From Octopus vulgaris (lineage: Eukaryota), in NCBI GenBank assembly GCA_951406725.2, contig OX597824.1:36270001-36334000 (forward strand): a DNA stretch of 64,000 nt, in the 5' to 3' direction. The stretch's first letter is position 1; each line of letters starts with the position of its first letter. The position numbers were made by a program, and so were the translations under genes. Below the pieces are notes generated by a model. It did not search any database. It had not been told where the DNA came from and saw only the letters and a list, made by a program, of their open reading frames with translations. This document shows, one piece after another, positions 42,282 to 51,047 of this stretch.

Positions 42282-42624
42282 TAACCTATTAAGATTGCTT
42301 CTAATTTTTATTGAATGGATTCTGTAGCTTTAGCAATAAGAATGAACGAGAAAAAATAATTAAATAAAAAATACCTCATTATTTCACCTTAAATGTCAGG
42401 TAGCAATTTAGAAATAATAGGGACTAAATTAACCTATTTTCAATATACGTGACAAAAACAATTATTTGGCGTTCCTTTCCGTTTGTAAACTAACGAGGGT
42501 ACTGAGAGAGTGGGTGTTCCACATAATAGTCGTGCTCATAATATAAATAAGGGTAAGAAAGGACCAGTTTAAAACTTGAGCTGGTTTTTGGAAAGAGCAT
42601 AATATTTGTGAATATTTTGCAATC
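42282..42624 (+). promoter_or_regulatory. Promoter/5'UTR of the M4 protease gene; TATAAA at 42542-42547
   Basis: Conserved in three copies at the same 82-83 bp distance upstream of the start codon position. Confidence 0.75.
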
Positions 42625-42676
42625 ATGAGGAATTTGATGTTTATATTATTTTATTCCTGGTATCTTCTATTTGGCA
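42625..42676 (+). CDS. M4 protease exon 1 (signal peptide MRNLMFILFYSWYLLFG + phase-1 A)
   Basis: gcaatcATG...GGC A|gtaagt; the phase-1 donor fits the acceptor at 48988|GT. Confidence 0.85.
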
Positions 42677-42789
42677 GTAAGTATATTTTCAAGAACTTAT
42701 CATTGTTTAAATTTACATATATTTTATCTTTATGTTTTCTTATGATGACAAATGACACATTTTCTATATGAAACATTTTATAGAATCCA

Positions 42790-43450
42790 ATCTGGCATGG
42801 GTTTGATCGTTTGACCAAGGCTGGTCAGCTGAAGACCTACCAAGTCTCCAAGTCTGTTTTGGCATGGTTTCTATGGCTCGATGCCCCTCCTAATACTAAC
42901 TAACGTACAAAGTGTATTGTGTGCTCTTACACAGCAGCCATTTGGCACTAGTATGGGTGCTTTTTATGTAGCACTCGCACGCACTAGCTTGCAAGATTAT
43001 GAATACCTAGCTGAAGAAGGATGCAGGGGACACACCTGTAGGCAAGGACGACTGCGTATTTACTTGGCTTAATGTGTCTTCTCAAGCACAGCAAACTGCT
43101 AGAAGTCTTGGTTCCCAGTCATCCCCTCTGTGAGGCCAAACATTTGAAGATCCTGTCTCACTACTCCGTCTCAAGTCTTCCTGAGTCAACCTTTTCCACG
43201 CATTCCCTCCGCAATTAGAGCTCGGCAGTTTTTGATTAATTCATACACATTACATGACTGCACCAGCGCAGTCTTCTCTCTTGCACACTACATGAGATGC
43301 CTCATATACCCAGTTTTTCTCTCAAATCACTTACACCCTGTTGTATATGCACACTGACATTACCCATCTAGCAGAGCATATTTGCTTCATTTCTTTCAAG
43401 CCTTCACATGCTCTTAGTAGTCACAGCCCATGTTTCACTATCATGCGGCG
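42790..43450 (-). mobile_element. RTE LINE 3' fragment (intronic)
   Basis: RTE tail plus decayed RLRWxGHV-type coding. Confidence 0.6.
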
Positions 43451-43984
43451 TTGCTGTTTGTACACAGACATCATAAATACCTATTTCTTTACTACCCACA
43501 AAACTAAACACAGAGAGGACAAACAGGGACAGACAAACGGATTAAGTCGATTATATCGACCCCAGTGCGTAATTGGTACTTATTTAATCGACCCCGAAAG
43601 GATGAAAGGCAAAGTGGACCTCGGTGGAATTTGAACTCAGAACATAAAGACAGACGAAATGCGGCTAACGTTTCTGTCAGCTCGCCGCCTTAAAGTATTT
43701 AAGTAGTGCCTCTGTAGTGCCATGAAACTAACGGTTTCTGTGTGTCCTTGAATGGCTTACAAACGTCTATGTTGCAATTGTTTTTATGTCAGCACACGAT
43801 CTCATATCAAGTCACTTGCTATACAAGTAAATCTCCGTAATTCTTAAAAATCACTGTGGATAAATGCCAGTAATGACCTTCTCAGGCTCTCCAATTTTTT
43901 TCGTTTCTAAACAGAAACAATCGGGGCCAGGGAGCGAGGTTGCAAAAAATTCATAATTTCTCAAATTTTCTTTTTTATAGCATA

Positions 43985-47520: not shown

Positions 47521-48620
47521 CAAGGTGTGGTGAATAAATCGTCGTCTACATTACGCAAATATGAAAATAATGCTGACCTCTCATTTTAACAGATACATTT
47601 ACCAAAATTACATAAAAAATATCTTGAAATACTAAAATGTAAATTTATTCAATAAAATCGCCATTGGTTTCAACCACGACTTCCAGACAACTCCGGAATC
47701 TACTGCAGCTCTTCAGGACGATCTCCTTGCTTAAGCTGGTGAATGCTGCCATAATCTTTGCCGTCAGATCATCTTTAGTGTTACAAGGAGTTTTGTTGGT
47801 CTCTCAACTGCGCCCCACACAATAATCAAGAGGATCGCATTCTGGGAGTTAGGTGGCCAGATGTTAGGGGTGATGTGGTCCCAGAAATTGTCTGACAACT
47901 ATGATTTGGTTCTCCTGCTTGTGTGACAAGATGCAGAGTCCTGTTGCCAGACATAGGGTCATCCAGCAGCCACTCTCTTGACCCAGGGCAACGCTAACAC
48001 TTCCAAGCACTTGTTGTAGGCTTCCGTGTTGAGTCTGAGGCCTCGTGGGAAGATGAATGGAGGCATAACGTCGCTATGACTAGTGATCACTCCAAACATC
48101 ATGATGTTGACGGGATGTTTAATTTTTATCACTCTCGGTACATGTTTTGGGGACACAGCAAGCCAATGGTGGTTCTGTGTGTTCACCATCTAATCCTGGC
48201 AGAATTTTTACTCGCCTGGGAAAAACCAAAGCATGTTCAGTTAGAGGGGAGTTTGTTCAAAAGATCTGTAGTTCAGTCTTTCCTCTTGTCTTTGATGGCT
48301 TGAGATTAAAATTGGACGTTTCTCATCTTGCATGAGGAATACCGAATGTCTTGAAGTACTACCTGCTTGATAAGAAACTCAAACACTTTCATGTCCCTGG
48401 CGATCGACCTGATTGACTTGGAGGAATCGTTATCAATCATGGCCTGGATCTCACCAACAATTTCAGGAGTTCTTTTCTTATCAGATCAGAGTGAGTTTTC
48501 GGAACTGACGTAACTTCGTAATTACAATTGGACTCATCCAACTCTTTCCGAATCTTCTGCACTGTCCTCAGATTGACACTCAATCGATCTGAAATGTTTG
48601 TATTGAGATTTCTGGTTTGA
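47521..48620 (-). mobile_element. Tc1/mariner-superfamily (DD37D/maT-like) transposase pseudogene
   Basis: TA|caaggtg end; KHPVNIMMFGVITSHSDVMPPFIF, VWQQDSA.CHTS, WPPNS..NPLDY motifs. Confidence 0.75.
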
Positions 48621-48988
48621 ATGCTATGCTTGTTGTTTTACTAAAAGGTCACTCGCAACCATTCACTTAAAAGTTATTCATTCCGTCTAACAAATCACCT
48701 CCCTATTTCACCAAACACTAAATTAACTGCAAAAACCCATTGAATTTCTTTTTGGATGAATTTCTTGATACTGATGTATTTCTTCAATGAGCTATATATT
48801 TTAAACTATAAGTTCATATTTGTATTAATGTGAATTGTTAATTAATTACAATTTTTAAAAAATAAATTAGGCCTGCCCCAGATGTTTATTTACTATGTAT
48901 TAATGTATTGTCAAAAAATTAGTGTCCGTCTTAAAGAAAAAATCCTAATGGTTCTGTTATTAATAATTGTAATGTTTTCATTATTTAG

Positions 48989-50847
48989 GTTTGTTACTGA
49001 TAAAGACATCTGATGCAGCTTATCGTGTTGATGCTCATGAAAGAGCAAGGAGGATGGTTTATCATCCCTCAGCTCCGTTTCAGAGGCGTCATTTAGATAA
49101 AGCTAAAGTAACAGTCAGAGATCTTCTTGGTTTGAAGGAGTATGAAGAAGTTGAAGAGTCAAACCGTATCAAAACAGTTGAAGGCACAGAAGTTTTACGC
49201 TTACAAGAGAAGTTCTTAGGTGTTCCTGTTTTTGATGCTTCATTAACTGTTACAGAAGATAAAGATGGACATTTGACTGGTGATGCAACAGGAACATTTA
49301 TTCAAGGAATTGAAGATGATATTACAAATGTGAAACCAAAGCTTTCCAAATCAGATGTCTTTGATATTGCTTTTAAAGCAGAGGGAGATGAGATTTACGC
49401 AAATAGTATCGAACCAGAATATGAAATTATGATTTTCATGGATGAAAATGACAAACCTCGATTAGTATACGATATAAATTATAGAATAGAAAATGAAGTA
49501 GTTATTAAACGGCCTACATTTGTCATTGATGGTAACACTGGAGAAATACTGTTGAAATATAACAATTTAGATACAATTTCCAGAGTACTGACTGGTTCCG
49601 GCGGTAATGAAAAATCAGGAATATACAAATTTAGTGACAAAAATCACAAAGCTTTTGTAACTCAAATTGGTGACATGTGTTTCCTGGAAAATAATTATGT
49701 AAAGGTTATAGACATGCAAAACAGTATTGGGAGAGTCTCTAATTATACAGATCCTATGTATTATCTTTGTGACGTTGGTTTTAATGACAGTGTCAATGCA
49801 GCGATATCTCCAGCACTTGATGCTTTCTATTACGGCAGTGTAGTATCTCAGATGTTTCAGGAATGGTATAATACTTCAATACTAAACGAACAAGCTATAT
49901 TGCGTGTTCATTATGGGAAAAATTATGAAGAGGCATTTTGGGATGGGAAACATTGCACATTTGGTGATGGCTATAAATACTTTTATCCTTTAACAGATGC
50001 TGATGTTGTTGCACATGAATTTGCTCATGGCTTCACAGAACAACACTCTGGATTGATTTACTTGAATCAGTCTGGATCTATGAATGAGGCTTTTTCTGAT
50101 ATTACAGGAGAAGTTACTGAAAATTATATAGATAAAAATGACTGGTTAATTGGCTTCAACCTCCTGAAACATAAGGAAGCATTGAGATTTATGGCAGATC
50201 CATCCCTGGACAATATATCGATAAGTCATGTAGATAACTTCACTGAAAACACGGATCCTCATCATGGTAGTGGGATTTATAATTTTATTTTTTACTACAT
50301 TGTACACGAATTAAAAATGGATATCATGGAAGCTTATCGAGTTTTCCTTATTGCCAATGAAATATATTGGCATCATTATACAGATTTCACTTCAGGGGCT
50401 TGTGATTTGTTGAAGGTTGCCTATGATCTTGGAAAAGATCTAACCCCCTTTATTAAAGCCTTTGAACTTGTAGGAATTAAACCATGTGATGTAGAAAAAC
50501 ATATTCGAGGATTGACATTTAACAAAACAGTCTCAGGTATCACAGTGTCAGTTAAAACAAACCCAGTCTTTGATTTTGTTTATCCAAGCTGGGCTGGGAA
50601 TATTACAATTACTGCCACTAGTATGTGTGGCAAAGTTCATATTAAGGTATCAAAGAGCAATATGCTAACAGAGGAAGAAGGTTCAGATGGTTCAGATCCA
50701 GTTACATTATTAGCTGAAGGCACATCAGAATTGAATTTGGGGAAGCCTGAAGGACATAAGTTCTTTGTCAAATTATCTCCAGAATCTAGCGAAAATTTAA
50801 AAAATGTTAGTGTACGTGTTTCTTATGGGTTGGATAGAGCCATATGA
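48989..50847 (+). CDS. M4 (thermolysin/LasB/vibriolysin-like) zinc metalloprotease, exon 2; spliced preproprotein 636 aa
   Basis: ttttcattatttag|GT acceptor; FTP and PepSY propeptide; mature GSGGNEKSGIY start; HEFAH (50014-50028), NEAFSD third Zn ligand, DPHHGSG; PPC-like C-terminal domain; open frame with no stops. Confidence 0.95.
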
Positions 50848-50951
50848 TTCACACGTGGATGTGTAATGAGAATTTCGTGTTTTAAAAATATAATCGGATA
50901 TTTATATACCAGTTTCTATAAATAATATGTTCCTTAATTTACAATTTAATT

Positions 50952-51047
50952 AATAAATATTTCATAATTGCTTGCATTTGCAGATAATTGTAAGTTTACA
51001 TTTTTTCGGTTGCTCAGTAGGTAACACAAATTGAAAATTGTAATAAA
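50952..51047 (+). terminator. Candidate poly(A) signals AATAAA (50952-50957, 51042-51047)
   Basis: AATAAA 105 and 195 nt after the stop; the first is conserved in the paralog remnant near 51465. Confidence 0.55.

What the first reader, a model, noticed from the sequence alone, without database searches (positions are those of the whole stretch)
42542..51047. Gammaproteobacterial-type thermolysin (LasB/vibriolysin-like) protease domesticated as an intron-containing animal gene
Seen: splicing 42676->48989 (A|GT = Ser) gives MRNLMFILFYSWYLLFGSLLLIKTSDA-AYRV..., a signal peptide split by a 6.3-kb GT-AG intron full of host transposons, with a TATA box and AATAAA. The AT-rich composition resembles the host. 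The protein has FTP+PepSY propeptide, catalytic domain and a PPC-like tail. Established: M4 peptidases are mainly bacterial secreted enzymes. The motifs GGNxKxGxY, VNxAxSPxxDA, VHYG..E.AFWDG, FYPL..DV.AHE..HGFTEQ.SGLIY..QSG.MNEAFSD, D.HH.SG.YN, both disulfide pairs and the Ca-site spacing (GE..E...NDWL) follow Pseudomonas LasB/Vibrio enzymes rather than Bacillus thermolysin (compared from memory). Inference: horizontal transfer from a marine bacterium followed by gain of a host promoter and signal exon. It is a candidate salivary/venom, digestive, hatching or antimicrobial enzyme. Homologues may exist in other molluscs, which would make the transfer ancient; I cannot assess novelty without a search.
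Basis: partly seen in the sequence, partly recalled or inferred. Interest (0 to 1): 0.9.

Follow-up and report, generated by a model that had tools for sequence, protein, structure and literature searches.

The report
Octopus protease borrowed from bacteria
This is a real, two-exon octopus gene for a predicted secreted protein-cutting enzyme that molluscs likely took from marine bacteria before they diversified; the transfer was already reported in 2018, so it is mostly a known story.

Summary
Confirmed, but already published. The gene has a 52-nt signal exon (42625-42676), a 6,312-nt GT-AG intron and one long exon (48989-50847), giving a stop-free 636-aa M4 zinc protease. A contig from a run guessed to be RNA joins the two exons with this copy's own letters. 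Sequence and fold match vibriolysin/LasB, not thermolysin. The genome holds ten long-frame copies, five in tandem, plus one broken. Named relatives occur in cephalopods, bivalves, gastropods and a chiton. Liu et al. 2018 already reported seven such bacteria-derived zinc metalloproteinases in Octopus bimaculoides; three of their primers match this gene. Added here: one shared intron position across deep paralogues, a convertase-like site found in 13 of 15 mollusc but 1 of 24 bacterial rows, and unnamed eukaryote-like relatives outside the mollusc clade. Limits: nesting inside Gammaproteobacteria appears in one of three trees, so the donor is unresolved. Venom is not supported. This copy has lost the family's last ~20 residues and has Glu at the Asn112 position.

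The parts
42542..42547 (+). TATA-like box, 83 nt upstream of the ATG
   Evidence: TATAAA is also present at 6 of the 7 other exon-1 copies scanned; start site not mapped
42625..42676 (+). Exon 1 coding part: first 17 codons of the predicted signal peptide plus one base
   Evidence: exact match to a junction contig in run X1
42677..48988 (+). Phase-1 GT-AG intron, 6,312 nt
   Evidence: skipped by the X1 contig; DNA-like runs read across the donor (X16) and up to the acceptor region (X18)
45236..46256 (.). 146-bp satellite, 7 copies, inside the intron
   Evidence: TRF
48989..50847 (+). Exon 2: rest of the signal peptide, propeptide, catalytic domain and tail in one uninterrupted frame
49018..49584 (+). 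Propeptide (FTP + PepSY type) with an N-terminal Arg-x-Arg-Arg convertase-like site; boundaries predicted
   Evidence: (MCP-02 propeptide, E 1.4e-12)
49585..50487 (+). M4 catalytic domain, about 34 kDa; boundaries predicted
   Evidence: TM 0.93-0.96 to vibriolysin and LasB
49930..49932 (+). Glu332 at the position of Asn112 of thermolysin/LasB
   Evidence: this allele is matched exactly by an X1 contig over 49858-50004
50014..50028 (+). HEXXH zinc motif (His360, Glu361, His364); third ligand Glu384 at 50086-50088
50488..50844 (+). Beta-sandwich tail, likely a diverged PPC domain; lacks the last ~20 residues and Cys pair of its paralogues
50952..51047 (+). Two AATAAA candidates (50952, 51042)
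   Evidence: 3' end not mapped
41871..42261 (+). Broken partial copy of exon 2 (propeptide part, 96% identical, one frameshift) upstream of the promoter
51159..51330 (+). Degenerate duplicate of the gene's 3' end
34273..34467 (+). Orphan promoter/exon-1 copy without a start codon
62923..63115 (+). Intact-looking promoter/exon-1 copy, probably serving the next gene of the array beyond the window
   Evidence: pairing inferred from order

Best explanation
This is a spliced octopus gene, one of a tandem array, encoding a predicted secreted vibriolysin/LasB-type zinc endopeptidase whose ancestor was likely taken once from a marine bacterium before molluscs diversified, and which likely works as an extracellular, mainly digestive or mucosal, protease. 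Shown: the exon structure, the open frame, a junction contig, the fold class, kept zinc ligands, mollusc-wide homologues, and dN/dS below 1. Inferred: the signal peptide is cut near Ala27 and the protein enters the host secretory path. A convertase may trim the basic site at the start of the propeptide. The propeptide guides folding and inhibits the enzyme until it is cut off near residue 215, as in vibriolysin. His360, His364 and Glu384 hold zinc and Glu361 is the general base. The PPC-like tail may bind substrate. Paralogues differ most around the substrate-binding strand, which may broaden the range of substrates.
For: Gene structure and frame. Junction contig and an exact 147-nt catalytic-region contig that differs from the five close paralogues by 10-28 bases. 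PDB: pro-elastase E 4.5e-85 against thermolysin 1.4e-30; Foldseek TM 0.93-0.96 against 0.80-0.82. Named homologues in Octopus, Argonauta, five bivalve genera, two gastropod genera and a chiton. Molluscs form one clade in all three trees (98; 95; 91/97) and group with Pseudomonadota-type enzymes against Bacillus and Streptomyces at 100. The same acceptor position is predicted in L006-L010. dN/dS is 0.18-0.41 in the propeptide and 0.18-0.49 in the catalytic domain for 10 of 10 pairs. Liu et al. amplified the family from hepatopancreas cDNA. One peptide also present in this protein was seen in the ink proteome (1 spectrum, 1 of 3 samples, shared by 10 database entries). The family occurs in filter feeders and grazers, so its ancestral role is not venom.
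Against: Nesting within bacteria is model-dependent: bacteria form their own side at 89 and 60/83, so direction rests on distribution and on the bacterial-like single coding exon, not on the tree. The careful mixture-model tree did not finish. Bacterial rows were chosen by similarity to animal queries, and only 3-4 outgroup rows were used. No other eukaryotic M4 proteins were sampled. Tissue evidence is thin: hepatopancreas was the only tissue in the paper's text, and the runs carry no tissue label. No activity was measured. This copy has Glu for Asn112 (Asn in 25 of 25 bacterial rows). Its short 3' end is seen in a DNA-like run but in no RNA-like contig listed.
Confidence: 0.7

Rival explanations
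1. Same origin, but the main role is immune defence or tissue remodelling rather than digestion.
For: A birth-and-death tandem array with variable substrate-binding loops; peptide in ink, a defensive secretion. From memory, the companion Gene 2018 paper proposes this role; it was not held.
Against: No infection or wound data were seen. The only direct expression evidence is digestive-gland cDNA. No match in the held part of a skin-mucus proteome supplement (file cut when stored).
Confidence: 0.25
2. The family is functional, but this copy is a decaying duplicate.
For: Lost C-terminal ~20 aa with a Cys pair and Glu at the Asn112 position; broken copies on both sides and a frameshifted paralogue L004; no RNA-like contig listed over its own 3' end.
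Against: Intact 636-aa frame; zinc ligands and general base kept; spliced and catalytic-region contigs in X1; dN/dS 0.24-0.49 in the catalytic domain against four paralogues; Pomacea and other members also lack the terminal Cys segment.
Confidence: 0.15
3. A salivary or venom enzyme recruited for predation.
For: Secreted protease, expanded in a venomous predator; posterior salivary glands contain metalloproteases in general.
Against: No M4 names in the held supplement of an O. vulgaris salivary proteome (file cut, annotation-based). The two 'metalloprote' rows displayed, of 16 occurrences, were ADAMTS- and astacin-like. No mention in the main text of a Paroctopus gland study or a 2026 venom preprint. 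The family occurs in non-venomous molluscs.
Confidence: 0.1
4. Vertical inheritance from an early eukaryote or early animal, with many losses and no recent bacterial donor.
For: Two of three trees put the animal-like clade beside, not inside, the sampled bacteria; unnamed eukaryote-like relatives extend the clade beyond molluscs.
Against: That split is weakly supported. No named non-mollusc eukaryote appeared in the top 120 of three searches, apart from one record flagged as contamination that falls with Vibrio. The whole coding region after the signal peptide has no intron in the 10 long-frame copies. About 40% identity to bacterial enzymes is kept.
Confidence: 0.07
5. Bacterial contamination or misassembly.
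For: None beyond bacterial similarity.
Against: Lies on a 100-Mb contig among transposon remnants; spliced; host-like GC3; orthologues annotated in three Octopus species and Argonauta.
Confidence: 0.01

Closest known systems
Horizontally acquired Zn-metalloproteinases ZnMP1-7 of Octopus bimaculoides (Liu et al. 2018, Data Brief PMC6011040; companion Gene doi 10.1016/j.gene.2018.05.013, not read)
   Same: Same family. The two ZnMP4 primers and the ZnMP3 reverse primer each match exon 2 once with 1-2 mismatches (0 expected in 100 shuffles). Same claim of bacterial origin, with cDNA evidence.
   Different: Another Octopus species and a larger array. This copy has a short C-terminus and Glu at Asn112. 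The data paper's text does not describe the shared signal-peptide intron, the convertase-like site or non-mollusc relatives; its figures and the Gene paper were not seen.
Vibriolysin MCP-02 / P. aeruginosa elastase LasB / Legionella ProA (MEROPS M4, Pseudomonadota type)
   Same: Propeptide plus catalytic domain, zinc and calcium ligands, both disulfide pairs, 37-40% identity, rmsd 1.4-2.1 A.
   Different: Eukaryotic promoter and intron, a longer basic N-terminal propeptide extension, 9 N-glycosylation sequons, a diverged tail, Glu for Asn112.
NCBI 'elastase-like' / 'neutral protease-like' proteins of molluscs (Octopus, Argonauta, Liolophura, Tegillarca, Pecten, Mactra, Pomacea, Haliotis)
   Same: One clade with this gene, with the same architecture.
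   Different: Named only by similarity; no characterisation of their function was found in the searches run.
Bacillus thermolysin
   Same: M4 fold and mechanism.
   Different: More distant: about 26% identity, TM about 0.8; outgroup side of the trees.

Membership tests
Peptidase family M4 | Peptidase_M4 and M4_C domains above Pfam cut-off | tested here: met
   90.4 and 91.1 bits against cut-offs 22.4 and 24.4
Peptidase family M4 | HEXXH plus downstream Glu zinc ligand (NExxSD) | tested here: met
   His360, Glu361, His364, Glu384; invariant in 30 of 30 rows
Peptidase family M4 | Accessory catalytic residues (Tyr155, His223, Arg198 of LasB; numbering recalled) | tested here: met
   Tyr375, His442 and Arg417 align with the LasB chain
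Peptidase family M4 | Asn112 on the substrate-binding strand | tested here: not met
   Glu332 here; Asn in 25 of 25 bacterial and 11 of 15 mollusc rows; role of Asn112 from passages of PMC12316308. It is conserved but not used by Pfam to define the family.
Peptidase family M4 | Zinc-dependent endopeptidase activity, inhibited by EDTA or phosphoramidon | not testable with these tools
   needs an assay
Vibriolysin/LasB subgroup | Two disulfide pairs, FTP+PepSY propeptide and closer fold than thermolysin | tested here: met
   Cys248/278 and Cys489/517 in LasB-equivalent positions; TM 0.93-0.96; FTP passes but PepSY is just under cut-off
Vibriolysin/LasB subgroup | C-terminal PPC domain | tested here: inconclusive
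   No Pfam hit; Atlas 0.90 with PPC clusters; Foldseek E about 9e-4
Domesticated bacterial gene (HGT) | Integrated in a host chromosome, spliced, host-like composition | tested here: met
Domesticated bacterial gene (HGT) | Nested inside a bacterial clade with support | tested here: inconclusive
   nested (SH-aLRT 89-95 on the nesting branches); sister (89; 60/83); no AU value was produced
Domesticated bacterial gene (HGT) | Absent from most other eukaryotes | tested here: inconclusive
   No named non-mollusc eukaryote in three top-120 lists, but 24 unnamed eukaryote-like rows were placed in the trees, and the full profile search could not be run
Octopus ZnMP1-7 (Liu et al. 2018) | Sequence match to the published genes | tested here: met
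   3 of 3 primers tried match exon 2; 79-85% identity to O. bimaculoides proteins
Cephalopod venom protein | Present in posterior salivary gland or saliva | tested here: inconclusive
   no name match in a cut supplement; no tissue-labelled reads available

The most novel reading that the evidence does not exclude
One transfer of a vibriolysin gene into an animal ancestor older than molluscs founded an unrecognised invertebrate M4 family. Seventeen unnamed proteins join the molluscs at 99 support. Many come in pairs or arrays on megabase contigs, and 15 of 16 unnamed rows with an N-terminus share a convertase-like site. The gene then gained one signal-peptide intron before the mollusc paralogues split, and octopus tandem copies are now diversifying their substrate-binding strand.
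Probability: 0.45. Interest if true: 0.6.

Novelty: already known. Interest (0 to 1): 0.3.

Why it matters
It is a clean example of a bacterial secreted protease kept by molluscs since before their radiation and fitted to the eukaryotic secretory path, with function still untested in the papers found. The core claim is in print. The open, testable parts are how far beyond molluscs the transfer reaches, which bacteria donated it, and whether natural changes at the Asn112 strand give the paralogues different substrates or pH ranges.

Tried and rejected
The full HMMER search of cluster representatives could not be run, so the family's range outside molluscs is open. The careful mixture-model tree did not finish in two runs; quick and LG+G4 trees were used. 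The AU test for 'bacteria form one clade' gave no value because the best tree already had that split. Three cluster look-ups (30 proteins) named only one further organism, the chiton; the non-mollusc-like rows stayed unnamed. No RNA holder was on record among 24 listed runs, so RNA status is a guess and contigs say nothing on tissue or level. No contig listed covers this copy's own 3' end in the RNA-like runs, and a hole proves nothing. N-glycosylation sequons did not separate unnamed rows from bacteria (2.4 vs 2.3 per domain). No positive selection was shown: only one tail comparison had dN/dS above 1, on 4.5 synonymous changes. Paper searches found no study of animal M4 proteases other than Liu et al. 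(found); subscription journals are mostly not covered. No source was found for the effect of Asn112 to Glu. Earlier scan findings: none returned. No complex prediction was run, as no binding claim is made.
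Full report
Observation. The ATG is at 42625, exon 1 ends at 42676, a GT-AG intron of 6,312 nt follows, and exon 2 runs 48989-50847. The spliced frame gives 636 aa with only the final stop. 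TATAAA lies at 42542 and AATAAA at 50952 and 51042. Coding GC is 0.349 and GC3 0.256, in a window of 0.37. Of the intron, 1,473 of 6,312 bases match elsewhere in the 164 kb examined, and it holds a 146-bp satellite of 7 copies.

It is a real, spliced gene. Of 24 listed runs none is on record as RNA, so RNA status is a guess. In X1 a contig has a 46-nt loose end at 48989 whose 30 shown letters equal this copy's exon 1. These 30 letters differ from the 7 other exon-1 copies by 2-5 bases. A 105-nt X1 contig matches 42631-42678 exactly. Another X1 contig matches 49858-50004 with no difference, where the five close paralogues differ by 10-28 bases. In one search the three RNA-like runs have no cover over the intron end; X18 does, and it reads through the 3' flank. 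Run X7 shows the same junction with another paralogue's exon-1 letters. No listed RNA-like contig covers this copy's own 3' end: the X1 contig there continues as paralogue L002 or L004.

The protein. Pfam gives Peptidase_M4 and M4_C strongly, FTP just above and PepSY just below cut-off, and no PPC. The best PDB match is P. aeruginosa pro-elastase (E 4.5e-85), far ahead of thermolysin (1.4e-30). The model (pLDDT 84) matches vibriolysin MCP-02 and LasB at TM 0.93-0.96 and thermolysin at about 0.8. His360, Glu361, His364, Glu384, Tyr375, Arg417, His442, the calcium-site acids and both cysteine pairs align with LasB (LasB residue numbers are recalled). The tail is a beta-sandwich that resembles PPC only weakly. 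Two features are particular to this copy. It has Glu332 where 25 of 25 bacterial rows have Asn; this Asn binds the scissile amide in thermolysin (passages of PMC12316308). It also ends about 20 residues before its paralogues and lacks their last Cys pair.

The family in this genome. The genome search gave 12 matches: 10 loci with open frames of 507-827 aa and one broken locus in two pieces. Five lie in tandem within about 110 kb, one of them frameshifted, with eight exon-1 copies and two fragments. Among five intact close paralogues dN/dS is 0.18-0.41 in the propeptide and 0.18-0.49 in the catalytic domain for 10 of 10 pairs, and 0.44-0.83 in the tail for 9 of 10 (NG86). Differences cluster in a loop and around the Asn112 strand (alignment; not tested statistically). 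An AG after a pyrimidine-rich stretch lies 29 nt before the same alanine codon in this gene, L006 and L008-L010, and at the equivalent place in L007. These acceptors are predicted, except for this gene's group. L008-L010 branch below all other mollusc rows, so the intron likely predates the mollusc radiation.

Distribution and origin. The first search scored 7,997 candidates and listed 120. The top hits are Octopus (79-92% for the close group), Argonauta, bivalves and gastropods (36-45%), then unnamed proteins, then Vibrio, Shewanella and others (31-40%). A cluster look-up added the chiton Liolophura. One isopod record flagged as contamination groups with Vibrio. I built three trees on the propeptide plus catalytic domain. 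One search used 81 rows (29 of 77 bacterial loci after thinning, 11 more bacterial proteins, 4 outgroups; 5 rows labelled mollusc are unnamed and were labelled by likeness). There molluscs form a clade (98), join 11 unnamed rows (99) and sit inside Pseudomonadota. Searches used 64 rows and a mixture model with a short search: molluscs 95, molluscs plus 17 unnamed rows 99, bacteria on their own side at 89. One search used 38 of those 64 rows with bootstraps: molluscs 91/97, plus 8 unnamed rows 99/99, bacteria 60/83. Kinship with the vibriolysin group is therefore firm, but nesting and donor are not shown. Transfer remains the likeliest reading, because the group is otherwise bacterial in these searches and the coding region has no intron after the signal peptide.

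Unnamed relatives. These proteins have no organism label. Several occur as same-length pairs on two long contigs and as multi-copy sets on one contig, which suggests diploid eukaryote genomes (inference). A dibasic or Arg-x-x-Arg site near the start of the propeptide is present in 13 of 15 mollusc rows, 15 of 16 unnamed rows with an N-terminus, 1 of 24 bacterial rows and 0 of 4 outgroup rows. The pattern was written after seeing the alignment, and the segment is longer in animals. They could still be unusual molluscs, other animals or protists.

What is known. Liu et al. 2018 (PMC6011040; whole text read, figures not held, one supplement seen cut) list seven Zn-metalloproteinases among 12 horizontally acquired genes of O. 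bimaculoides, amplified from hepatopancreas cDNA. Three of three primers tried match exon 2 with 1-2 mismatches. The companion Gene paper was not held; from memory it dates most transfers to the mollusc ancestor and proposes immune and remodelling roles. In an ink proteome supplement (PMC10142993; passages and supplement rows) one peptide, also present in this protein, was seen once. Name searches of cut supplements of a salivary proteome (PMC7693380) and a skin-mucus proteome (PMC10138644) found no M4 entry. Main-text term searches of PMC12607849 and bioRxiv 2026.02.02.703354 found none either; the supplement held for the first was only 393 characters, and preprint supplements are closed. Unseen supplement parts could bear on the venom question.

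How it most likely works. The protein would be secreted, trimmed at the basic site, folded with help from the propeptide, and activated by self-cleavage near residue 215, as is established for vibriolysin and LasB (own knowledge; not tested here). The mature domain of about 34 kDa would cut proteins before hydrophobic residues. A digestive or mucosal role is favoured by the digestive-gland cDNA and by the family's presence in filter feeders and grazers. Immune or remodelling roles remain open, and venom is unlikely as the ancestral role.

Verdict. Novelty: already known; interest 0.3. The best open lead is a single transfer older than molluscs (probability 0.45, interest 0.6 if true).

Noticed in passing
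window 55720-58860 (+): Long open frame of 1,046 aa with a reverse transcriptase domain (RVT_1, 3.6e-28): a largely intact non-LTR retrotransposon ORF.
   Followed up: partly
window 36751-38624 (+): Fragmented RT-like frames ending in a weak GIY-YIG match (below cut-off), suggesting a decayed Penelope-like element; a similar remnant lies at 46862-47533 in the intron (no Pfam hit).
   Followed up: partly
window 60064-60531 (-): Tc1/mariner transposase fragment (HTH_Tnp_Tc3_2, 2.7e-18).
   Followed up: partly
G000:C11:36332923 and 36338089: Two intact-looking promoter/exon-1 copies precede one coding exon (L005), so this paralogue may use alternative first exons.
   Followed up: no
L002-L005 (G000:C11:36.35-36.43 Mb): Synonymous divergence is much lower in the propeptide than in the catalytic domain among tandem copies (0.02-0.11 vs 0.11-0.27), which hints at gene conversion in the 5' part.
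   Followed up: partly
L008-L010 (G000:C28, C29): A deep paralogue group with higher GC3 (0.43-0.50 over the open frame vs 0.25) and an altered Asn112 strand; found here only in octopods.
   Followed up: partly
L011/L012 (G000:C9:114.56 Mb): Broken M4 copy with an internal stop and frame breaks.
   Followed up: no
P0029, P0035, P0280: Unnamed proteins on contigs of about 2.3 kb that branch between bacteria and the rest of the animal-like clade and keep clear PPC domains; best candidates for dating the transfer.
   Followed up: partly
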